Source: Pecten maximus
Lineage: Eukaryota
Direction: 5' to 3'
DNA: 64,000 bases
Assembly: GCF_902652985.1 (NCBI RefSeq)
Contig: NC_047021.1
Location: 7,254,001-7,318,000 of the forward strand
The notes beneath the pieces were generated by a model, which was not told where the DNA came from, searched no databases, and saw only the letters and a program-made list of their open reading frames with translations. Positions 15,351 to 56,486 of the stretch are shown piece by piece. The translations under genes and the position numbers were made by a program. How positions within the stretch are numbered: position 1 is the first letter of the stretch; every line of letters starts with the position of its first letter.

Positions 15351-17319
15351 ATATCATTGGTTTAAACAATTACTTGATATATGTTCATGATTGTGGTAAT
15401 TACTACACAAGTTCTTTTGAAAATGAGGATTATTTTCTTGGAGTTCTTGGGTCTTGTGTTGTACATTGTTATATCACGTATTGGGTTATTTTCACGAGTG
15501 TGACAGTTGCTTTAAACAGTGTCATTTCCACAGAGGAAATATTTACTGTGTGTTTAGTTACAAAAAAGTGTAATTTACTGTTTACTATTTTTAGGATGGA
15601 GATTTAATATAAACACAGGGTCGTTTTCACGGTAAGTTTATCAACTTTGTAGTGAACATGTGTGCATTGAACATTTCCAATAATGTGTTACAGAGTGTTT
15701 TACCTTACACAATGCGTCTGCAACACCCGATCTCATTATGGTTGTTCTTTGTCAAGTGTCTCTTGGTGATTATATTATTACATTTCTCCCAGTGAAATAT
15801 CCGAAATTGTCAACTTGATAAACAACCAGTGCTGACTTACATGTTCTTCCATGAGTGAGTATGACAGAAAAATATAATCAATATCCTCTATATATTTCAC
15901 CAGTAACAAAGTGTTTTTATCAAATTGACAAGTCCTTATGTTTCACAGGTAATATGTTATTAATAGAAAGATATAGAATCGTTTTCCGTTCAATAAAACA
16001 TATATTTCACTCGTGTGACAGATCGTTTTCCGTTCAATAAAACATATATTTCTCTCGTGTGACAGAAGAAACCGATATCCTGTTATGCTCCTGATATGGG
16101 AAACCATATAATATCCTCCTGTGTATGTATTTCGATACTATTTCTCGTGTTTAGTGGTTTTTAAGTTTGAATTGAAATTTCGTTTACATGCCGTCGCAAA
16201 CATCTTATATTTACATAGTGTTAATATCTGATTGTTTGATGGAAAAGTTAATATACGTCACTTCTAAAAGGTATATTAAGATGGTGTCGTGACGGAAAAA
16301 AGTTTGAATGGACACAACAATATAATCTCACTAGTCCTTCTGACAAGGTGAGTTACTAAAACCTTATAAATGTAATACATGTATAGTTGTATATATAATA
16401 GAAAATTATATCTTAAGATAAATTACCTCAAATAGACATTTAGACAAACACGAGAGCTGACAACTGGGTGACAATACGTATAAATCATTGATAACAATTG
16501 TAGAACATGTTTTTTTGGCCATGCATAACAGCACAAGGATAAATACACTGCTGGGTCAAAAGTCTTTCTGCACAATCTAATTCTGCTGTATTATTTTGTC
16601 ATTTAACCCGTTTTTCAAAGAATATTCCTGATTTTGTTGATAGGCCGATTTTAACAAAAGTTTGTACGCTGAAAGATACTGGTTTTATTTTCATGATAAT
16701 TCCATTCATTTTTGTTGCTGTTTACATGAAAATTTATTAACCACATTTTGATGATATTTTGGTAAGTGTATGAATGATGACGGTGCCACGGGTAACTGAA
16801 TTGTGTTGCTAATTTTAATTTTTTCTATAACATATGCGTTATTGTGCGTAGGTATTCTACATGAGGAATTTCTATATTTGTCTTGATCAACACGCCAAAC
16901 ATCAATAAAATACAACCATGAATAACGTCAGGGCGAGTGATCGGAAAAAAAAAAAAAAAAAAAACAACATTCAAATTAATATTGAGGAAAGACTTTTGAC
17001 CCAAAAGTGTATTATGACATATTGAATGTGAAACATTTTTATATTCTGAAAAGTAATATTGCATTTCAATAGTATTTATTCATACATTTTACCCTGCTTT
17101 TCATGATAAATGTTTGATCTTGTATATAAACAATGATAGTTTGATAGTCAATTGATGTAGAACATATAGTTACTATGTGAAACAAAAATATAACAATTTT
17201 ATCATATATCACATATTAGTAGAGTAACAGTAAATTAATAGAAATAAATAAATATATAAATCAACAAATTCTAAATAAAGATAAAAAATACAAACTTGAG
17301 CCTTTTCACTCTTCATTAC

Positions 17320-26900: not shown

Positions 26901-29900
26901 GGACAGTCATCACCCAGGACTAACCTTACCAGTTTAACCAGTCTGGGACAGTCATCACCCAGGACTAACCTTACCAGTTTAACAAAGTCTGGGGCAGTCA
27001 TCACCCAGGACTAACCTTACCAGTTTAACCAGTCTGGGACAGTCATCACTCAGGACTAACCTAACCAGTTTAACCAGTCATGGACAGTCATCACCCAGGA
27101 CTAACCTTACCAGTTTAACAAAGTCTGGAACAGTCATCACCCAGGACTAACCTTACCAGTTTAACTAGTCTGGGACAGTCATCACCCAGGACTAACCTTA
27201 CCAGTTTAACCAGTCTGGGACAGTCATCACCAGGACTAACCTTACCAGTTTAACCAGTCATGGACAGTCATCACTCAGGACTAACCTTACCAGTTTAACC
27301 GGTCTGGGACAGTCATCACCAGGACTAACCTTACCAGTTTAACAAAGTCTGGAACAGTCATCACCCAGGACTAACCTTACCAGTTTAACAAAGTCTGGAA
27401 CAGTCATCACTCAGGACTAACCTTACCAGTTTAACAAAGTCTGAGACAGTCATCACCCAGGACTAACCTTACCAGTTTAACCAGTCATGGACAGTCATCA
27501 CCCAGGACTAACCTTACCAGTTTAACAAAGTCTGGGACAGTCATCACCCAGGACTAACCTTACCAGTTTAACAAAGTCTGGAACAGTCATCACTCAGGAC
27601 TAACCTTACCAGTTTAACAAAGTCTGGGACAGTCATCACCCAGGACTAACCTTACCAGTTTAACAAAGTCTGGAACAGTCATCACCCAGGACTAACCTTA
27701 CCAGTTTAACAAAGTCTGGGACAGTCATCACCCAGGACTAACCTTACCAGTTTAACAAAGTCTGGGACAGTTATCACCCAGGACTAACCTTACCAGTTTA
27801 ACAAAGTCTGGAACAGTCATCACTCAGGACTAACCCTTCTGGTAACTAGACTGGAGCAGTCATCACCCAGGACTAACCCTGGGTTATTGAACTTCAATAA
27901 TGTACATGTAGATGGATAATTTGGAAACAGATTTTATTCATGGCTTTACATGTGCACAAAACCCCTGTGATTTAATGTCACACAGACAAAATCAAAAACA
28001 TTTTCAAAAGTTTTCCCAATTGTTATAGTTTGCGATAATGTCCTTAAAGTCCTGGAAACTCTTAATTTGACCGGAAGAATCTCTTATTATCGCCAAGACA
28101 TCATTACATGTAGGCACAGACACTCATATGATCGTCGTTTGGACATAGATTTCATCAATAGAAATTGTGCATGATTCTGATGTCTGAATGAAGGAATGCC
28201 CTTTTAACAGGGTCACAGGGTCATAAAATAATAAACTGATTGCCATGAAAATTGACATGAGTGATCTTTGTGCCACCATTCAGTTTCTTGCAAAACAGTT
28301 GCAATACCTTTCCTTGCTTATTTTCTCTATATCTAGACTTTTTGGGAAAAAAACACAATTTTTCCAAAAAAATAATGATTATTTCAAAATAAGGATTAAA
28401 AAAAATGCCACATTTCCCTGTAAATGTTTGTTGGTACAGCAAGAATCATTTTTCCAGTTGAGAAACTTTTCCTACAAGTAAGAATTTTTAGGGGCATCTT
28501 TATTTGAGAAAACTAACTCACCTCTACTTTCAAAGAAAATAAATGAGGACATGATTTGTAGCACCAGTGATAATTAAATTTAAAAGATCCATGTAACTTC
28601 ACTTACATCAAAATCCAAGGCCATTTCCCACATTTTCCTCTTCTGGTCAATAGATTTCTGTACATCTACAGGAGACAGTGTTTTGTAAGCTTCCGGTACT
28701 GTCTTCACATCAACTCTGGCTCTACTAACTCTGGCGGTCAGCTGACCAGGCTCAAACTTTGATTTTCCCTGATAGTCTGTAAACATATTCAACACTTCTG
28801 GTTTACAAAATATGAAGACATGATTATATCCTCAAGAAAGAACTCATCTGATATCAAGTAATTAATCCAGAGTATAGGATCATGAAATTTAATGTTCTGC
28901 CAAGTGAACACATGTCTTAGCTTTGTGGTTATGAGGGAAACACACATCGCTGCTGTGTGGTTATGAGGTAAACACACACCCCTGTTGTGTGGTTATGAGG
29001 TAAATACACACCCCTGCTGTGTGGTTATGAGGTAAATACACACCCCTGTTGTGTGGCTATGAGGTAAATACACACCCCTGTTGTGTGGTTATGAGGTAAA
29101 TACACACCCCTGTTGTGTGGCTATGAGGTAAATACACACACCTGTTGTGTGGTTATGAGGTAAATACACACCCCTGCTGTGTGGTTATGAGGTAAATACA
29201 CACCCCTGCTGTGTGGTTATGAGGTAAATACACATCCCTGTTGTGTGGTAATGAGGTAAATACACACTCCTGCTGTGTGGTTATGAGGTAAATACACACC
29301 CCTGTTGTGTGGTTATGAGGTAAATACACACCCCTGTTGTGAGGTTATGAGGTAAATACACACCCCTGTTGTGTGGTTATGAGGTAAATACACCCCCCTG
29401 TTGTGTGGTTATGAGGTAAATACACACTCCTGCTGTGTCGTTATGAGGTAAATACACACCCCTGTTGTGTGGTTATGAGGTAAATACACACTCCTGCTGT
29501 GTCGTTATGAGGTAAATACATACCCCTGTTGTGTGGTTATGAGGTAAATACACACCCCTGTTGTGTGGTTATGAGGTAAATACACACCCCTGTTGTGAGG
29601 TTATGAGGTAAATACACACCCTTGTTGTGTGGTTATGAGGTAAATACACCCCCCTGTTGTGTGGTTATGAGGTAAATACACCCCCCTGTTGTGTGGTTAT
29701 GAGGTAAATACACCCCCCTGTTGTGTGGTTATGAGGTAAATACACACCCCTGTTGTGTGGTTATGAGGTAAATACACACCCATGCTGTGTGGTTATGAGG
29801 TAAATACACACCCCTGCTGTGTGGTTATGAGGTAAATACACATCCCCTGTTGTGTGGTTATGAGGTAAATACACATCCCTGTTGTGTGGTTATGAGGTAA

Positions 29901-32900
29901 ATACATACCCTGTTGTGAGGTTATGAGGTAAATACACACCCCTGTTGTGAGGTTATGAGGTAAATACACATCTCTGTTGTGTGGTTATGAGGTAAATACA
30001 CACCCCTGTTGTGAGGTTATGAGGTAAATACACACCCCTGTGGTGTGGTTATGAGGTAAATACACACCCCTGTTGTGTGGTTATGAGGTAAATACACACC
30101 CCTGTTGTGTGGTTATGAGGTAAATACACACCCCTGTTGTGAGGTTATGAGGTAAATACACATCCCTGATGTGTGGTTATGAGGTAAATACACACCCCTG
30201 TTGTGTGGTTATGAGGTAAATACACACCCCTGTTGTGTGGTTATGAGGTAAATACACACCCCTGTTGTGTGGTTATGAGGTAAATACACACCCCTGCTGT
30301 GTGGTAATGAGGTAAATACACACCCCTGTTGTGTGGCTATGAGGTAAATACACACCCCTGTTGTGTGGTTATGAGGTAAATACACACCCCTGTTGTGTGG
30401 TTATGAGGTAAATACACCCCCCTGTGGTGTGGTTATGAGGTAAATACACACCCCTGCTGTGTGGTAATGAGGTAAATACACACCCCTGTTGTGTGGCTAT
30501 GAGGTAAATACACACCCCTGTTGTGTGGTTATGAGGTAAATACACCCCCCTGTTGTGTGGTTATGAGGTAAATACACACCCCTGTTGTGTGGTTATGAGG
30601 TAAATACACAACCCTGTTGTGTGGTTATGAGGTAAATACACATCCCTGTCGTGTGGATATGAGGTAAATACACACCCCTGTTGTGTGGTTATGAGGTAAA
30701 TACACACCCCTGTTGTGTGGTTATGAGGTAAATACACTCCCCTGTTGTGTGGTTATGAGGTAAACACACACCCCTGCTGTGTGGTTATGAGGTAAATACA
30801 CACCCCTGTTGTGTGGCTATGAGGTAAATACACACCCCTGCTGTGTGGTTATGAGGTAAATACACATGTAACCCTGGTAAATACTAGCCGCAATATACCG
30901 CTCGGCTAGAGAGATCTTCTCTTTAGCTCGATCGGTTGAGCGTAAGACTAGTAAGCCAGGGGTCCCGGGTTCGATCCCTAGCGGAGGCAGTGATTTAAAT
31001 TTAATTAATCCTGCGCTCTGTTACATTGGCGCCCATGTAGGGACTCGGGAATGATACTCATCGCTGCTTGCGAAAGCATCGCTGTTAACCCTGGAAACTC
31101 GAGGACGAGTTCTTTCCTGGAGGGTGAGTATGTAACCCTGGTAAATACTAGCCGCAATATACCGCTCGGCTAGAGAGATCTTCTCTTTAGCTCGATCGGT
31201 TGAGCGTAAGACTAGTAAGCCAGGGGTCCCGGGTTCGATCCCTAGCGGAGGCAGTGATTTAAATTTAATTAATCCTGCGCTCTGTTACACACACCCCTGT
31301 TGTGTGGTTATGAGGTAAATACACATCCCTGTTGTGTGGTTATGAGGTAAATACACACCCCTGTTGTGTGGTAATGAGGTAAATACACACCCCTGTTGTG
31401 TGGTTATGAGGTAAATACACCCCCCTGTTGTGTGGTTATGAGGTAAATACACATCCCTGTTGTGTGGTAATGAGGTTAATACACACCCCTGTTTTACGGT
31501 TGCTAGGTTAACAACACGACGTGCAACATCCACAAGTTCGTGAACTTTGTACACTCGGTCTGGTTTTCCAGTAAGCTCTTTTCGGAGAAAGGCTGGCAGC
31601 AAACGGTGACCTCTTGTGTTAGGCTTCAACAGGACCTTCAGCCTGAAAGTAACCAATATGAAGCAAATTCTATGAAAGATAACTTATAAATAGAAATCTG
31701 TGTAATCTCTGTTTCAACAATTAATTATGTCAATAAAATGTAAAATTACTTTCTACATATTTCTTGTATATTACGGGGAAATACACTGTTGTCATGACTA
31801 ATGGATCTTTTTATCAAGAATTAGTAAATCCACAGCAGGAATTGAATGTAATGCTTATTTAATTAAGCTTTGATAATAACATTTCTGTACAACAAGGCCC
31901 TTTGGCAATATCTATTTTTGTAGCATTAGCTAAATATTACAGATCAGCTTTGGTCTTCTGTTCAGTACACATTTTATATCTCAACAAAATTCCAAAATAA
32001 ACTTAAAATCATCAATAGGTTTATTTTCTTTTTTCTTCTTAACTAATTACAATCTACTTTTATTTTGATTTTTGTAGATATAGATTTTCTCTTCAACAAA
32101 CTCATTTAAATGTACATTTTCTATTTTTAATTATTGAGGATAAATATTAAAATCGGAGTTTTGTGAATAACTGTTCTACCATTATCAATTCATTATCAAT
32201 TTACCAGTATTCGGCCACTGATGACCACTTAGACCATTCCGATTTCTGCCAAAGTAACAGATGAGCTTGAGTTGTCTCCCCTGTCACTCCCAGACTCATT
32301 TGTTGTGGAACACAATTTCCAGTGAGGATTTGGATTTCATTTGGATTAGTTCTAATTTTCTCTATGCTGTCTTTGTCCACCATACAGCTGCAGAAAGACT
32401 TGTCAAAATCTTTGCTCAAGGCATCAGATTTAATTCTATATCTCTTTCCTTTTTTCTTCCACTGGGTCTCTGGTTCTTGTTTTGTACCAACTTTTGTTAT
32501 CTTCTTTTTGATCACTGATTGGCTAGTACCAATATTCTGTCCGTAAATAAGTGGAGCTTGTTTTGAAGTAGACCTAGGTATTGTGGTATATGAAATATTT
32601 TCATTATTTTCTTGACCGCGTAATCTTTTCTTCTTTCTTTTTTCTTTTTTTGTTTTTTTTGAAGAATTGCACTTGGTATCATTTATATAAAAGTCTTTGA
32701 TTGTAAATTTTCTAACTTGATTTCCTGAAGGATGAATATAGCTTGCAATGTTTCCATCATCAAAATACTCCTCATACAACAGGTAATCTGTAACATGGTT
32801 ACTGTTGTCTCGGTAACCATCACAGTACATCTGATGCTCCTTGTGATCCAGCCCCTGGTAAAACCAAAGACTCCATGACCTATTGTGATTCCCCTTTTTC

Positions 32901-47350: not shown

Positions 47351-50300
47351 CTATGTGATTAGATGTTCTGTCCCGTCTACCCTGCGCCTGGCCTCTCCTT
47401 CTTCATCTGTTGACACCAGCAGATCTGATTCTATAAAGTCCTCAGCTTTTTCAATTCGGTTGTAACATCGCACCTGTTCTGTCGTTTTGTAGAACTTTAC
47501 TGACGGATCATTGTCACTCACATAAATCCTTTTCGTTCCTTTCATTTCTCTCTTCAGGAAGTTGTCAACCACCCAGAATATAAAAGCCTATAAATAAAAG
47601 CAATCATGGCAAATCAATATATGGGGTATGTTAAAAGACTGGAAAATGAAAATGTAAACATTGAGAGAGTTACAGAATTTTATACAATAAAATTAGACAA
47701 GAGATCCCAGAGGGATCTTGGCGCCCACCATTGAATGACCCATATCAGTTTAATGAAAGACTGATCTTTTCTTTTCCCTTCTTTCACTCTTCTTTTAAAA
47801 CATTTAATAACTTAAACAAGATATAGCAGGGGCAACCAGCGATTGTCAAAATCCAAGATGGCCTTCTGTTAGCCATGTTCTTTTTCGATTGGTCCAAAAA
47901 TGCAACATGCACAACAAGGGACCAAAGAAAACTTACATATGAAATATGAGAAAGAACCCTTAAGGACTTGAGAAATAGCAACTACAAACTTTAATCGTCA
48001 AAATTTAAGATGGCTGCCTGTCTGCCATGTTGTTTTCCGATCGGTCCCAAAATGCAATATGCACAACTAGGGACCAAGGTGAACTTACATTTGAAATTTG
48101 AGAAATATCCTTTTAGTACTCTCTGCGAAATAGCGATAACAAGAATTGTTAACGCAGGGACGGAAAGACGAACGACGGGATGGGATGTACAAGAGTAACA
48201 TTTTATGCCCCCCAATTTCGTGGTGAGGGCATAAAAATTCCTGGAAATTTACGAATATACCTTAAATGTCAAAAAATTTATCTTCATTTTCCTTTGTAGA
48301 CCTGTCACCTAGTCAATCCACTCATATATTTATTATCATTCGATCAGAGTGTGTCTTGTAAAGATATATAGAACATTTACTGTATATCATCATTAAACCA
48401 TAATGTGTTCTGTCAAGCTATATAGAACATTTACTGTATATTATAATTAAACCATAATGTGTTCTGTCAAGCTATATAGAACATTTACTGTATATTATCA
48501 TTAAACCATAATGTGTTCTGTCAAGCTATATAGAACATTTACTGTAAATTATCATTAAACCATAATGTGTTCTGTCAAGCTATATAGAACATTTACTGTA
48601 AATTATCATTAAACCATAATGTGTTCTGTCAAGCTATATAGAACATTTACTGTATATTATCATTTGACCATAATGTGTTCAGTGTAGATTGTATTTGGTA
48701 ATTACTTACATTAACAATCAGTGGTATGATGAACATTACAATGATGAGTTCTACATGAGGGTCCTTCACAGGAGACATCAGAAATGACCGCACCTACCGA
48801 CACAAACATATCAATTTATACACAATATCAAAAAACTCACCTACAGACACAAAACATATCAATTTATACACAATATCAAAAAACTCACCTACCGACACAA
48901 ACATATCAATTTATACACAATATCAAAAAACTCACCTACAGACACAAACATATCAATTTATACACAATATCAAAAAACTGACATTTCAAAAATTTATCAC
49001 ATGCAGTTCACATTTCAAGATCTTGTAAAGCATAAATCATTATCACACTATTTACCACTGATAGGCTTTTAAGAATATAATTACATCAAATTAACTATAT
49101 CTACCATGTGAGATTACCAACCGGAGACAAGTTCTACAGATAATATTTATGAATGACAAGACACTAATTTTAGAAGGGAATACCGATTGCCTCCCCTTAT
49201 AGACTGTTGAAGGCACATTGTACTTTAAATGGTTTACAATGATTACTATGAGAATGTTCATAAAAACACAATCAGGTTTTATTTAATAGGTATTTACTTT
49301 TTTGTGAAAATGATAATTAAAGCTACTACATTACACTGTGTATATGATTTTAGTACTTCTATTCTTAGTATTTAATAGGTAATACTAAGGACCTCATAAA
49401 CATGTGTTATAACTGACAAAAGTTCAAATATTGTACTTACATCTTTCCAGAAGTCAAACTGCACCAAGAGAGTCATTAGGAACTTTTCTAGGATCATGAC
49501 TAAGATGTATAGTCCACACTGCCCTACCCAAGCATTACACTCCGGAGGATTCCCTGTTACAAAATTCACCACCTTAACATGTTGTACACATACTTACTCA
49601 TATCATCTCTTTTTGTTTTATAATATATAGCCAATGTAATATAATTTTCTAAGCAATATTATATCAACTCAATCAACATTACCACAATAATGGCTTATTC
49701 CTGATATAAAACTAGTCCAAACACCTACACTACACTAAATTCATACAAAGTCATAAACTTTGTCAGATATAAATTGTTAATTATTTATCAGTTAAATAAT
49801 CAACATTATTGATTATTTATTTATTGAAAGAAATGATATATAATACATTGGGTTTAGATGTACATGTTATGTCCTTTTGTCACAGTAAATAGGGACTGAA
49901 CAGAATTGTAATATTCAACAAGAGGCCCATAGACATTAACGGTCACCTGAGTTAAGAAATAATTCAGTTAATTTGACCCTTTTTGGCCCTGCCGATCAGC
50001 CCAGGGAGTCAGTCAGGGCCAACATGTGAAAACCATCAAACTGTCTACCCAACCTGCTATTTGAACTAAGTTAGAATGAATTCCAATAGAAGTCAAGACA
50101 AATGGTAGTCAAAAATGTGATTTTCTTCAATAAAGGAGAGATCCGTGTGTGACAAAATTCACAATTTTGTTAAAGCACCTTCAGACCCTTCCATCTATAA
50201 AGAATATTGATTCTAAATTATTTGGGTTTTGAGAACAAGTGCTCTTTGAAATTTCAGTTAATTTGACCCTATTTGGCTCAGCTACCTGCCATTTTGTAAA

Positions 50301-53300
50301 GCCCTGGCTGCCTCAATGTAAATCGTGATTTCCCTATATAAACTCCTTCCCAAGGGGCAAATGTGAGACTCAAGGGTCGTGAAAATCACATTTTTTGTAA
50401 AGCACCTTAATTAAGACCCTTCATCTAAGAGGAGTATTTGATTCTACCTTATTTGGGTCCTGAGAAGAAGACAACACATGACAGAAGACGACGGAGAAAA
50501 GGCAATCAGAATAGGTCACTTGAGACTTTGTTTGGGGTGACCTAAAAATAGGGATATATATACATATTATATATATATATAGGAAATACACAATTAAAAG
50601 ACAACTCACCATATTCTCCAAACTTTAGTGACTGGTAATTGTATTTTTTGACAACAATTTGGGTCATTTTTAAACCTAAGTATACCACAAATAGACCTAT
50701 GGTAGAGTCCAGCATAAAACTGATAAAGTACCTGGAATGACAAAAGTAAGATATTTGATAACAATCATGCAATATACAAACTTTATGACAACAAAACCAA
50801 GATCAATAAAGTGACTATTATGGCAGAATATGATATTATAGTCCGGATCTTTATCTAGATTGTGAATTTGAGAAATGTGTATGATTTTAGTTTACAAACA
50901 ATGCCTTACCATGTACATGGATCACCTTGGAAAATATCTGCCAGCAGGACATTAGCAAAATGAATGACCATTGCTCCAAGAGCTTGTTTCGATGTATCAA
51001 AAGTCCTGAAAAACAATAATTAATAACTGCAAGAACATCTTTGGATAATGTTTTAATTTATATTGTTGATTAGAAAGAAAGAGTGAGTGATATACCAAGG
51101 TTACAATACACGAGATAAATTGTATGCATATTCAGTGGACATGAGGCCCAATGGGCCTGAATCGCTCATCTGCTTCTAGAGCAACTTTGAAGCCGATCTA
51201 GGTTATTTATATGTAGATACTACTAATGCTGATAACCGCTTTATTAAATCAACAGAGAGGGCTAGCTAGACTTATTCGACAAGTACATTTTTAAGCCTTC
51301 ATTCCAGCATACTAATGGCCAAATATCAGATTTAAGGATTAACATATCTAACCCCTGTGACCTTGAATGTAAGTCAAGGTTATTCCCTTGAACGAACTTG
51401 GTAGCCCTTCACTCCAGCATGCTACAGACCGAATATCATCTCCCTGGGCCTCTCAGTTATTGAAAAGAAGTTGTTTAAAGATTTTAGTCTATTAGACCCA
51501 TGTGACCTTGAAAAGAGGTCAGGTCATTCATCTGAACAAACTTGATAGCCCTTGATCCAATCATGCTACAGGCCTAATATTAACTTGCTGGACATTCTGG
51601 ATATTAAAAAGGAGTCATTTGAAGATTTTAGCATATTTGACCCCTGTGACCATCAGGGTTCGTCCACTCGTCTTGCCTGGGTCAAAACAGGCAAGTGTCA
51701 AGTGAACAGTTGGGTCTGATATGTCCTTGTGCTGAATAAAAGTTTAGCTCAAATTATCAAATTGTTATGAATCCAAATAAAATATAACAAGATTTTAATA
51801 TCGTAATATGCGTAATATGTAGATAAGACAAGTGCAATCAATGATTGCGAAAGCTCACCGGCGGCAGCAATCACACTATGCATTCATTTTTTATGTATGT
51901 ATAAGCATGTCATTTTGAAATTGTATGTCACATAATATCGGTCCTAGACCTCTAATGGTTGTATAAACCAAATAAGAAGGGTGTGGACTTACAAGCTTTT
52001 CAAAACAAAGTCCACTAAATAGTAAAATGCCAAAATGCCAATTTTTTTCTGCATGATTTGCCACAGCATCCCTCCTGGACCTCTAATGAATGTATAAACC
52101 AATCTAGAAGGGCACGAGGTGTATACTTTTGGACTTACAAACTTTCCAAAAACTGACCCAAAAAACTTTAGTGGGTTTTGGTGCCAAAAAAGTTAAGTCC
52201 ATAAAATGGTAAAATGCGAAAAAATCTCAATTTTTTTCTGCATGATTTTGCCATAACATCATTCCTAGACTTCTAATGAATGTATAAATCAAATAAGAAG
52301 GACATGAGGTGTATACTTTTGGACTTAAAAGCTTTCCAAAAACTTACCCCAAAAACTTTGAAGTTTTGGGGTGGGACGCGGACGCGGGGGTGACAGCATT
52401 GGCTCTCGGTTACTCGTAACCGGTGAGCTAAAAAACCATAAACTTACCTTAGGCTAATGTGACGTGTTTACGATTGCTTCACTAGTACAGGCCGGGTCAT
52501 ACAAACACTTGCAATTTTCGAAAGCATGTGTCAGATAATTAAGCATGAAAGCTATTTGGTGCTGAGTGGACTTCAAATAGTGCCGAGTGCTGGTACTATT
52601 TTCCCTAGGCACAGTGCCAAGTGGTTATAAAAATTCTATCTGAGCCCTGGTCACCTTGAATGTTGGTCAAGGTCATTCATTTGAACAAAATTGGTAGCCT
52701 TTCACCCCAGCATGCTTAAGGCCTAATATCAAATCCCTGGGCATCTTTGTTATTATGAGGTTTTTTAGCATATTTGATCCCTGTGACCTTGAAAGTGGGT
52801 TGAGGTCATTCATTCAAACAAACTTGGTAGCCCTTCATCCCAGCATAAGACATGACCAGTATCAGGTCTCTTGGTCATCGAGGAAAAAGTTGAACGGACC
52901 GATGGACGAGGGATGTTGCACCCATGGCATAAAAACAAATAACATATAAGCTCTGAGGAGCTTTTGACTAACATATGCAGCATAACCTACAGTTATGTGT
53001 GGTGCAATGCACTACAATTTGTACTGTTACTCCTGTAAGAATCCTTCAAACTATAGTATGGTATAAAGCAATGGAGATAAAGGCTAAATTCAGCATTTTA
53101 GCATGAATATATTTAAGCAACCTTAACTTTTATGACCTGAAATTCTGAATTCAGTTACCTCCTATATTTGTCAACCAAATACAAAGACCCTAGCATCATC
53201 CTGCTGAACGTCAAATATATCATCACTAAGGGCCATATATGGTTGATTTAGATGAAATCAACTTCAGATTTTTCACTCTGTGATCCTGATCATAAATATA

Positions 53301-56300
53301 ATTCCAGACATTCACAAGATATTCCAGAGGGATCTTGGCACCCACCAAGAATTGATCAATATCAGTCAAATGAAAGACTGATCTTTTCTCTACTTTTCCC
53401 TTCTTCCACTCTTCCTTCAAAACATTTTATAAATTTATATGACACTATTAAGCAGGAGCAACCTGCAATTGTCAAAACCAAAGATAGCCATAATCTTTGT
53501 CATCCATTAAGTTCTTTCGATCAGACTTGCATGCACAACTGGAGACTAAGTTTCAATTGTTAAAATCAAATATGGCTGCCTTTTGGCCATGTTGTTGTCA
53601 GGTTGGTCCTGTACAGGAAAATGCATAACTATAGGGATCAAGGGAAACCTACATATGAAATTTGAGATCTAGCAGTAACAAACTTCAATTGTCAAAATCC
53701 TAGATGATCATGATCACCTGTTGGCTATGTTGTTTTCTGATCGCTTCCAAAATGCAATATGCACAACTAGGGACCAATGGAAACTTACATAGGAAATATG
53801 AGAAAGATCCCTTCAGTGATTTCTGAGAAATGGCTATAACAAACTTCAATTGTCAAAATCCAAGATGGCTGCCTGTCGGCCATGTTGTTTTCCGATCAGC
53901 CCCAAAATGCAATATGCACAACTAGGAACCAAGGATAACTTACATATGAAATTTGAGAAAGATCACTTTGGCATTTTCTGAGTAATAGCGATAACAAACT
54001 TAAATTGTCAAAATCCAAAAGCCTGTAGGCCATGTTGTTTTCAGATCAGTCCAAATATGCAATATGCACAGCTAGGGACCATGGACGATGGACCATGGAT
54101 GATGGACCATGGATGCAGGGCAATTTGAATAGCCTTCCATCTGATATTGGTGGGCTATAAAACATCGTTCATTACAAGAAATCATTTGAAGTTTTTTCCT
54201 CATTTAATACATGACCCTGAACACTGGTATACGAGTAAACTTGCAACCTTTCACCTTAGAAATCCATGTGGCAATTTTAAAACTCATGTTTTTCAAAAGT
54301 TTTAGGTAGACGTGTAGTGAAATCAGTCATCTTAGATCACTAAGGACACCATATCAGCTCCCTTGTACAGGCATGTCAGTGATCCGAAACTTACCATATC
54401 TTCCAAGGTCTACGTTCATATTTTGGCTCACAGTATCGTTTTACTGAAAGTACAACAAAGAATAATTTGAAAAAAATTCTTCATTTTGGAATTTAAATAC
54501 AGATGTTAATAAGATTCACACATACAAAATGCACATGAACATTGCACAACAAGTGAAATTTTAGTCATCAATCTTGTACATTTTATAGCACACACACACT
54601 TTCTGGACAATGTATGATGACTGGTGATAATAAATGATTTATATATCTATGAAATTTTTTTATAAGTTGCAACAATGTCTTACATTTATCTTGTTTTCTG
54701 TAAGAATTACACACTGTACACATGTATTTGAGCATATCAATATTACAATTATTTGACATTTAGAATTATACCCTGTAAAACAAACCCTGAGCAATTAATA
54801 TTTATCATGTAACTTATTTGTACTTGATTCATACCTTCAACACTGAAGCCAAATAAAAATATGTGTTTAGGGTTACAAGTTGAGAATTTGGTAGGTAGGT
54901 AGGTAGGTAGGAAAGTTATTTTATTTTATTCCACTTATTCCATTTCACTTATTTTTGCGATACATCATTTGGAATTAGTCAATTAGAACATATATATTTT
55001 TAGCAAAATCATATGTTAATCACGCCATTGAGAGCTAAACCATGTAAATATGTTTTTTCCTAACATTCCTTCTTTTGGGCTATTCTTAAATTGTTAAACA
55101 TCTATCCCAACCTAGCACCCTATATTATAGGTTTTGTTTACTGGTAGAATTGAATTGAATACAATTGAATTTATTTCTAACCTTATAGGGAATTCCTAGG
55201 TTTGGGTAGGTTTTCCGATTGGTCTCAAAATGCAATATTCACAACTAGAGACCAAAGGAACCTTTAAGTGAAATTTGAGAAAAATCGCTTTGTACTTTCT
55301 GAGAAATAGCGATAACAAGGCTTGTTTACGGATGGATTAACTGACTGACAGACAGACAGACAGACAGATGGACGCAGGGCGATTTGAATACTAATGAATC
55401 AGATGGTGGGCTAAAAATGAAATGTTATCATGGCAACTGCTCCAATTCCATATTATAAACGCTAATATTTTCAGGCCTTGCAGCTCTTTCAGGCAATTGA
55501 GGTTATACCATAGTTACATATTATAGAAACCTACTTTATGACATAATGCTATTGTTCATTTTAAGGAGAGATACATTTATAATAACGTCTTGGCAACCAC
55601 ATTATGATGTCATACATAGTATATGATAGAAGATACAGTTGTCATGTTTTTTTCCAGTTAATTAATCGATACACAAAGCATCTAAAGGTTATATATATAT
55701 AAAGCATATAAGAACAAGAAATCTGTCCATACAAAGGGTGAATATATCAAAAATAACAACAACAAAAAAGACTTTGCTGCAAGGCCTTTCCGATAACTTT
55801 TGATTCCATAAAATACAATTGTCTATATCACAGTTGCATGTTGTTTGGCGACAGGTATTATGACACTATTTGATTATATGTTACTGAAAAAGGGAATCTA
55901 GGGCATGCAATATCCTCACCGGACACTCATATGCACATCTATGCACCATAACTTTGCCAGCGCATTTCTGTAATTTATATGCATTGTCCGATCAAAGTGA
56001 AGCTTTGTGTGATATTGAGGTTCATCAGTATTTTACGTAAAAAATAATTGGAAAATATCATTAAATGAATTGTAAGGCGTTTAAAAACCTTCCAGGACAC
56101 TCATTACTTATAATCAACTGTACAGTCAATGCCACTCCCATTTTGCCTTATAGAAGGAAAGTAACATAAATATATTTTAAGCAGAGATCAAACATCTTTT
56201 GGAACTTTGGAGGCCCGCTGTGGATGTCTGATTTTAACCATACTCGTGTTCAAATAATCGAACTTCCATACCATTGACTAATAACATAGTTATTTATGAT

Positions 56301-56486
56301 ATTTGCACATGTAGATATACAGATACCTATTAGTGAAGTGAAGGCTAGGAAGGCCAAAACGGCTTGAACCAGTAGTCCCAGCGGTCCCATCAAATCTCCT
56401 GTGTTGCAATGATCATCCATATTTAATCTGTTCTCGTTCACAAGATCACTATGATTTAAATTAGAATTCGTTGCTACGACCGACAT
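47351..56486 (-). CDS. STIMATE: Store-operated calcium entry regulator STIMATE / TMEM110 (286 aa, 7 coding exons)
   Basis: Exons 56486-56327, 54443-54395, 51005-50910, 50731-50610, 49553-49441, 48793-48710, 47587-47351. All GT-AG and phase-consistent (861 nt). Family motifs: [24 protein letters not shown]...[57 protein letters not shown]. The start ATG choice is inferred. Confidence 0.95.
47697..48237 (+). mobile_element. HINE/pearl-like element, family B (STIMATE intron 6)
   Basis: Head ACAAGAGATCCCAGAGGGATCTTGGCGCCCACC, two internal units, GACG tail and 3' hairpin ATGCCCCC...GAGGGCAT followed by AAAAA. Confidence 0.8.
48367..48680. repeat. 54-bp tandem repeat, ~6 copies, next to the STIMATE exon 6 donor
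   Basis: TATAGAACATTTACTGTA(T/A)ATTATCATTAAACCATAATGTGTTCTGTCAAGCTA repeats. Confidence 0.95.
48794..48982 (-). repeat. 47-48-bp tandem repeat x4 containing the exon 6 splice acceptor
   Basis: Minus-strand unit GTGAGTTTTTTGATATTGTGTATAAATTGATATGTTTGTGTC(T/G)GTAG. Confidence 0.95.
49918..50548 (+). mobile_element. HINE/pearl-like element, family A (STIMATE intron 4)
   Basis: Head ACAAGAGGCCCATAGAC...CGGTCACCTGAG and 3' AGGTCACTTGAGAC...GGTGACCTAAAAA. Confidence 0.8.
51139..52960 (+). mobile_element. HINE/pearl-like element with internal TGTGACCTTGAA repeats, host of nested insertions
   Basis: Head ACATGAGGCCCCAATGGGCCTGAATCGCTCATCTG. Repeat units are interrupted at 51653 and resume at 52650. 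GGAC-type tail near 52895. Confidence 0.7.
51654..52649. mobile_element. hAT-like non-autonomous element, itself containing a HINE-like element (51828-52435)
   Basis: Ends CAGGGTTCG / TGAGCCCTG. The 8-bp flanks GTGACCAT and GTCACCTT each differ by one base from the host GTGACCTT. The inner element has an ACAAGTG...GCTCACCGG head and GCTCTCGGTTACTCGTAACCGGTGAGC + TAAAAA end. Confidence 0.6.
53313..54162 (+). mobile_element. HINE/pearl-like element, family B, with 155-160-bp internal repeats
   Basis: Head ACAAGATATTCCAGAGGGATCTTGGCACCCACC, repeated ATTGTCAAAATCCAAGATGGC units, (GGACCAT)n tail and GGTGGGCTATAAAA end. Confidence 0.8.

What the first reader, a model, noticed from the sequence alone, without database searches (positions are those of the whole stretch)
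48794..48982. Tandem stack of AG|GTGAGT zero-length-exon junctions at the STIMATE exon 6 acceptor
Seen: the 3' end of intron 5 is quadruplicated. On the gene strand each 47-48-nt unit reads GTGAGT...TAG, giving three TAG|GTGAGT junctions (48935/6, 48888/9, 48840/1) before the true TAG|GTGCGG. Using any upstream AG would add 47, 95 or 142 nt, all frameshifting. Inference: the consensus donor was created by duplication through GT microhomology. Correct mRNA then needs either selection of the most distal of four near-identical acceptors or recursive (ratchet) splicing of unusually short introns. This resembles intron gain by tandem duplication at AG|GT.
Basis: partly seen in the sequence, partly recalled or inferred. 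Interest (0 to 1): 0.7.

Follow-up and report, generated by a model that had tools for sequence, protein, structure and literature searches.

The report
Stacked splice acceptors, last one used
In an invertebrate's STIMATE gene the 47 bases around the start of exon 6 are repeated several times in a row, yet assembled RNA joins exon 5 only to the last copy, likely by choosing it directly, as in a repeat type already described in lancelet and human genes.

Summary
Real, but a known kind. The last 44 nt of STIMATE intron 5 plus 3 nt of exon 6 form four 47-48-nt units, giving three TAG|GTGAGT junctions before the true TAG|GTGCGG. Contigs of 3 of 3 DNA runs hold the repeat at about 2-3.5 times flank depth, so multiple copies are real; one run's contig pattern does not fit the assembled unit order. 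In 5 of 5 RNA-type runs (probably four data sets) one contig joins exon 5 to 48793, with no other joint. This is an acceptor-side 'mirage' minisatellite like amphioxus BflGb6 or human CBS 844ins68, where the last acceptor also wins. Recursive splicing could not be tested (contigs only); it would need a 95- or 142-nt intron, not a 47-nt one, and no intron was gained. The perfect donor is the odd part: 1 of 1,371 possible duplications here gives it. The scan noted the same kind before, in an octopus gene and three times in this genome.

The parts
48791..48979 (-). Tandem array of four 47-48-nt units, each the last 44 nt of intron 5 plus the first 3 nt (GTG) of exon 6
48930..48938 (-). Decoy junction 1, TAG|GTGAGT (A-type unit); use would add 142 nt
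   Evidence: bridged by DNA contigs of X1 and X4
48883..48891 (-). Decoy junction 2 (B-type unit, same 44 intron nt as the used acceptor); use would add 95 nt. Not seen in X1's contigs
48835..48843 (-). Decoy junction 3 (48-nt A' unit); use would add 47 nt
48794..48837 (-). Used acceptor region: predicted branch points TTGAT with A at -18 and -35, U/G-rich tract, TAG
   Evidence: motif scan; use shown by RNA joints
48710..48793 (-). STIMATE exon 6, 84 nt, phase 0-0, donor AAT|GTAAGT
49441..49553 (-). STIMATE exon 5, 113 nt, donor GAT|GTAAGT
48794..49440 (-). Intron 5, 647 nt (505 nt with one unit)
   Evidence: joint 'skips 647'
47351..56486 (-). STIMATE coding span, seven exons, 286 aa; exons 1-3 read from sequence, exons 4 and 7 seen as loose ends of RNA contigs

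Best explanation
This is a minisatellite built from the intron 5-exon 6 border of STIMATE, and the spliceosome likely picks the last acceptor directly, leaving the upstream copies as silent decoys. Shown: the array, its presence as several copies in DNA runs, and exon 5 joined to 48793 in assembled RNA. Inferred: one 47-nt duplication (break after exon base +3) was amplified by slippage or unequal crossing-over, and copy number varies between alleles. Inferred: the choice is made downstream of base +3, because decoy 2 and the used acceptor share all 44 intron bases; only the last AG is followed by exon 6 sequence, while each decoy AG is followed by a donor-like GTGAGT and a U run. The perfect donor is likely a by-product of the breakpoint. 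Rare slips to a decoy would be re-spliced (95 or 142 nt) or, being frameshifted with an early stop, likely degraded.
For: 5 of 5 RNA-type runs laid (X6, X8, X10, X14, X16) give one contig each with the single joint exon 5 to 48793, no intron cover and no exon 6 skipping; 4 of 5 bridge the joint by 83 nt, X16 by 23; X8 and X10 look like one data set. The used acceptor is not the stronger variant (9 of 17 pyrimidines and G at -5, against 10 of 17 and T in A-type decoys), so local strength does not decide. Precedents without any donor at the junction end the same way: amphioxus BflGb6 mirage (3' end of intron plus 5' part of exon 2; 6 against 3 units in two haplotypes; regular splicing; PMC3087553, passages) and CBS c.844_845ins68 (52 intron + 16 exon nt; upstream copy excised; PMC7490669, one passage). 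For human introns under 1,000 nt, conventional lariats outnumber recursive ones (PMC10156609, passages). Splice-site minisatellites are common in this genome: 11,407 tandem YAG|GTRAGT matches against 2,415 for the reversed pattern.
Against: Contigs at word depth 4-14 drop rare forms and cannot show intermediates, so direct and stepwise routes give the same result here. The junction is a strong donor (8 of 11 matches to a recalled consensus in the pre-mRNA, 7 after joining to exon 5, against 6-8 for the gene's six real donors and 4 for the single-unit state) and only 1 of 1,371 possible duplications across this acceptor would give GTRAG. An earlier scan note reports the same coincidence in an octopus gene (e1-9532346, unchecked). 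Decoy AGs would define exons of 131-226 nt with the exon 6 donor, so exon size alone does not exclude them.
Confidence: 0.72

Rival explanations
1. Stepwise removal is a main route: exon 5 is spliced to decoy 1 or 2, the regenerated donor GAT|GTGAGT is then spliced to the last AG (142 or 95 nt), or the inner 142/95-nt piece is cut out first, restoring the single-unit intron.
For: The junctions fit the ratchet-point form, acceptor directly followed by donor (PMC5126111 part 1 of 3; PMC8605326 introduction). Regenerated donor has 7 of 11 consensus matches plus a wobble. 95 and 142 nt exceed the roughly 60-nt minimum quoted for human cells (PMC3265369). 1 of 1,371 duplications gives this donor.
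Against: No intermediate or inclusion product in 5 of 5 RNA runs, though sensitivity is low. Described ratchet points are conserved and lie mostly in long introns; this intron is 647 nt and the array is young and variable. The exon junction complex represses regenerated splice sites in flies (PMC8184009, abstract). The ordinary precedents need no donor.
Confidence: 0.15
2. The decoys are used at a substantial rate and the frameshifted RNAs are destroyed, so the array lowers STIMATE output in a copy-number-dependent way.
For: All three decoy products stop at codon 189, 101-196 nt before the last junction, beyond the 50-55-nt rule for nonsense-mediated decay (recalled). Steady-state contigs would not show them.
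Against: No sign in contigs; amphioxus mirages are reported not to give aberrant mRNA (PMC3902484, one passage). The array occurs in 3 of 3 DNA runs, which suggests little cost.
Confidence: 0.1
3. The array is an assembly artefact.
For: X1's pieces (39 nt at 3.5x, 68 nt at 1.9x, an unbroken exit contig) match simulated A(n)-B alleles, not the assembled A-B-A'-B, so the unit order, the extra T and decoy 2's G variant may be assembly errors or another allele.
Against: A single-unit allele would give one unbroken contig; instead 3 of 3 DNA runs hold junction sequence at raised depth, and X1 and X4 bridge the junction by 31 or more bases on both sides.
Confidence: 0.03

Closest known systems
Amphioxus 'mirages' (BflGb6, BflGb9, Adh3, troponin C, PGBD5; PMC3087553 passages; PMC3902484 one passage)
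   Same: Minisatellite-like tandem copies of an intron-exon border; BflGb6 copies the intron 3' end plus the exon start; copy number varies; normal mRNA is made.
   Different: Unit is 47 nt with only 3 exon bases (BflGb6: 150-160 bp), so each seam reads as acceptor plus consensus donor. Different phylum.
Human CBS c.844_845ins68 (PMC7490669 one passage; lead from an earlier scan note)
   Same: Duplicated intron end plus exon start; the downstream acceptor is used and the extra copy is lost with the intron.
   Different: One extra copy with 16 exon bases; no donor at the seam is described in the passage seen.
Human F7 intron 7 37-bp VNTR (PMC1557585 abstract)
   Same: Border-spanning VNTR with functional but silent pseudo-sites; the site next to the real exon wins.
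   Different: Donor side. It is the model for the many donor-anchored arrays elsewhere in this genome.
Recursive-splicing ratchet points (PMC8605326 introduction; PMC5126111 part 1; PMC10156609 passages)
   Same: AG directly followed by GTRAGT.
   Different: Those are conserved, mostly deep in long introns and shown by intermediates; here three sit within 142 nt of the real acceptor in a 647-nt intron, in a variable repeat, with no intermediate seen.
Intron gain by tandem duplication at AG|GT (Rogers model; PMC3265369 part 1 of 4)
   Same: A duplication across AG|GT creates a donor-acceptor pair around the redundant copy.
   Different: There the AG|GT lies inside an exon and a new intron splits it; here it is an existing acceptor, and exon number is unchanged.

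Membership tests
Mirage minisatellite | Tandem units that span an exon-intron border | tested here: met
   44 intron nt + 3 exon nt per unit
Mirage minisatellite | Normal mRNA despite repeated splice signals | tested here: met
   5 of 5 RNA-type runs join exon 5 to 48793 only; contigs, so main form only
Mirage minisatellite | Length or unit variation between alleles | tested here: inconclusive
   Contig patterns and depths differ between X1, X4, X5 and the assembly, but contigs give no allele lengths
Recursive splice site (ratchet point) | Acceptor directly followed by a consensus donor | tested here: met
   TAG|GTGAGT x3
Recursive splice site (ratchet point) | Splicing intermediates or recursive lariats | not testable with these tools
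   All 24 listed runs are contigs, no raw reads; none seen in 5 laid
Recursive splice site (ratchet point) | Location in a long intron | tested here: not met
   647 nt; not strictly required
Recursive splice site (ratchet point) | Conservation across species | not testable with these tools
   No relatives of G000 are held; all runs found are one organism
Intron gain by tandem duplication | A new intron splits an ancestral exon | tested here: not met
   Exon 6 is whole and contiguous with exon 5 in the Pfam profile

The most novel reading that the evidence does not exclude
A self-correcting acceptor array: each decoy AG carries its own donor, so mis-splicing to a decoy is repaired by a second 95- or 142-nt splice (or blocked by U1 binding). 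Acceptor duplications with such a seam are tolerated and can expand, which would make young, copy-number-variable ratchet points in a short intron and show how recursive sites are born.
Probability: 0.13. Interest if true: 0.65.

Novelty: new member of a known kind. Interest (0 to 1): 0.25.

Why it matters
As read here it is one more mirage, useful mainly as a clean natural test piece: two acceptors with the same 44 intron bases, of which only one is used, and alleles that likely differ in copy number. If intermediates were found, it would be a newly born, polymorphic recursive splice site in a short intron, bearing on how ratchet points arise and why border duplications are tolerated.

Tried and rejected
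Single-unit artefact: rejected. Exact GT microhomology: rejected. RNA structure hiding the decoys: no support; 48700-49010 folds no better than shuffles (z 1.18, 89 of 100 shuffles as good). The unit as a dispersed repeat: a search of G000 gave the window and one 72% match in an unrelated AT-rich minisatellite; that search skips common words, so it does not prove rarity. The AG at +4/+5 of each seam as acceptor: all three also end in early stops and none appears in RNA. Other acceptor-anchored stacks: 39 loci from the heads of three pattern listings (L051 and L052 left out, lying inside one long array) gave 33 arrays after 6 loci without a called array were dropped. Pfam matches above cut-off lay upstream of the array in 4 of 32 and downstream in 0 of 33 (one array ran off its locus upstream, one to the edge downstream). 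Short exons mostly escape Pfam, so this is a weak, non-random sample. X4's loose ends begin at GATC, which suggests a proximity-ligation library with uneven depth; its ratio is given little weight. X1 may be the assembly's own sample. Holes in contig cover were not used as evidence except for the unbroken X1 exit contig. Minimum intron length in this species: one paper search gave nothing usable in its listing; not determined. The original mirage paper and the human tandem-array intron paper are not held. PMC10078293 (passages) and PMC2630376 (passages) added nothing used. No supplements were read. No paper on this locus appeared in the listings; the library lacks most subscription journals.

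Full report
Observation. On the minus strand four units of 47, 47, 48 and 47 nt fill 48979-48791. Each is the last 44 nt of intron 5 followed by GTG, the first codon of exon 6; the next unit starts with AGT, so three seams read TAG|GTGAGT (48935, 48888, 48840) and the fourth AG opens exon 6 (TAG|GTGCGG, 48793). The gene is STIMATE: seven exons give an open frame of 286 aa, and exons 5 and 6 match PF12400 contiguously. The organism was not determined here; earlier scan notes call this genome a scallop.

Is it real? One search listed 24 runs, all kept as contigs; I laid 8. In 3 of 3 DNA runs the contigs break at the array and its pieces have raised depth: X1 39 nt at 67.8 and 68 nt at 37.1 against flanks of 18-19; X4 77 nt at 186 against 53-58; X5 46 and 61 nt at 77.5 and 63.7 against 23-27. 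X1 and X4 bridge the first seam by 31 or more bases on both sides; X5's pieces are shorter. A single-unit allele would give one unbroken contig. So several copies are real. Against the assembly: simulated graphs show that X1's pieces fit arrays of identical A units ending in one B (two to three A units per allele), not A-B-A'-B. The assembled order may be another allele or an error; graph cleaning could also hide a path. X1 may be the assembly's own sample, X4 looks like a proximity-ligation library, and X5 differs at many sites and is likely another individual.

What RNA shows. 5 of 5 RNA-type runs (X6, X8, X10, X14, X16; the RNA label is on record only for X16, but all skip the intron at GT..AG) give one contig each, with one joint that skips 647 nt from exon 5 to 48793, running on into exon 7. 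No decoy junction, intron cover or exon 6 skipping appears. Depth is 4-14 and contigs drop rare forms, so this fixes the main product only.

How it arose. The left break reads ...TGTC|AGT and the right ...GGTG|CGG. An exact GT-microhomology event would give TAG|GTCAGT; the observed seam needs a break one base further or a later change. Of 1,371 duplications of 30-80 nt across this acceptor, 1 gives GTRAG, the observed one, and 29 give GTRA. This figure is post hoc and ignores the near-homology that favours this breakpoint, but it marks the donor as the unusual part.

How it is spliced. Three routes give the same mRNA: direct; exon 5 to a decoy and then on; or the inner piece first. The stepwise routes need 142 or 95 nt, and 47 nt only from decoy 3. 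In the assembly decoy 2 and the used acceptor share 44 intron bases and three exon bases, and the used one is the weaker variant by pyrimidine count, so the deciding signal lies downstream: exon 6 sequence after the last AG, a donor and U run after the others (inference; the classic tandem-acceptor experiments of Reed and Maniatis point the same way, recalled). I favour the direct route (0.72) because border duplications without a seam donor end the same way (BflGb6; CBS), because recursive use is the minor mode in short human introns, and because regenerated sites are repressed by the exon junction complex in flies. Stepwise use as a main route (0.15) and leaky use with decay (0.10) are not excluded.

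Genome context. Tandem repeats cover 26% of the window. Tandem YAG|GTRAGT pairs occur 11,407 times in G000 against 2,415 for the reversed pattern; in the first 7.33 Mb of C1 the listings show 16 arrays against 3 (my note said 17, but two hits lie in one array). Many start at an exon's own donor. Of 33 arrays examined, Pfam matches above cut-off lay upstream in 4 of 32 and downstream in 0 of 33. So splice-site minisatellites are common here, mostly on the donor side, and the acceptor-side form with a donor at the seam is the rarer one; I found no second case.

Comparison and verdict. It meets the two testable marks of an amphioxus-type mirage, has the sequence form but no shown activity of a ratchet point, and is not an intron gain. 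No paper on this locus appeared in ten searches. The scan has noted the kind before. New member of a known kind; interest 0.25. The bold reading, a self-correcting array of newborn ratchet points, has probability about 0.13.

Noticed in passing
G000 genome-wide; L033-L073: Minisatellites carrying YAG|GTRAGT are about five times more frequent than the reversed control, and many start at an exon's own donor (EGF, DNA polymerase beta thumb, WD40 and ATP synthase D exons by Pfam). Whether this exceeds what repeat density alone gives was not tested; earlier scan notes saw the same pattern.
   Followed up: partly
window 48331-48680: A 54-nt x 6.5 array begins 29 nt after the exon 6 donor, so exon 6 is flanked by young arrays on both sides; this one does not include the donor.
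   Followed up: no
window 49554-49573: The exon 5 acceptor is pyrimidine-poor (7 of 17) with another AG 19 nt upstream, yet it is the one used in RNA contigs.
   Followed up: partly
L044 (G000:C1:5448500-5458400): A 6.3-kb array of 50-nt donor-bearing units follows an exon matching DNA polymerase beta thumb.
   Followed up: no
L056 (G000:C1:34254200 and 34256440): Two near-identical donor arrays 2.2 kb apart in a WD40 gene, possibly a duplicated exon-plus-array block.
   Followed up: no
window 28924-30866 and 31289-31493: A 32-nt array of about 60 copies carries AG|GTAAAT on the plus strand and seems interrupted by about 420 nt of other sequence.
   Followed up: no
window 15978-16066: A 44-nt x 2 repeat on the plus strand ends in CAG; possibly another duplicated acceptor, no exon checked.
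   Followed up: no
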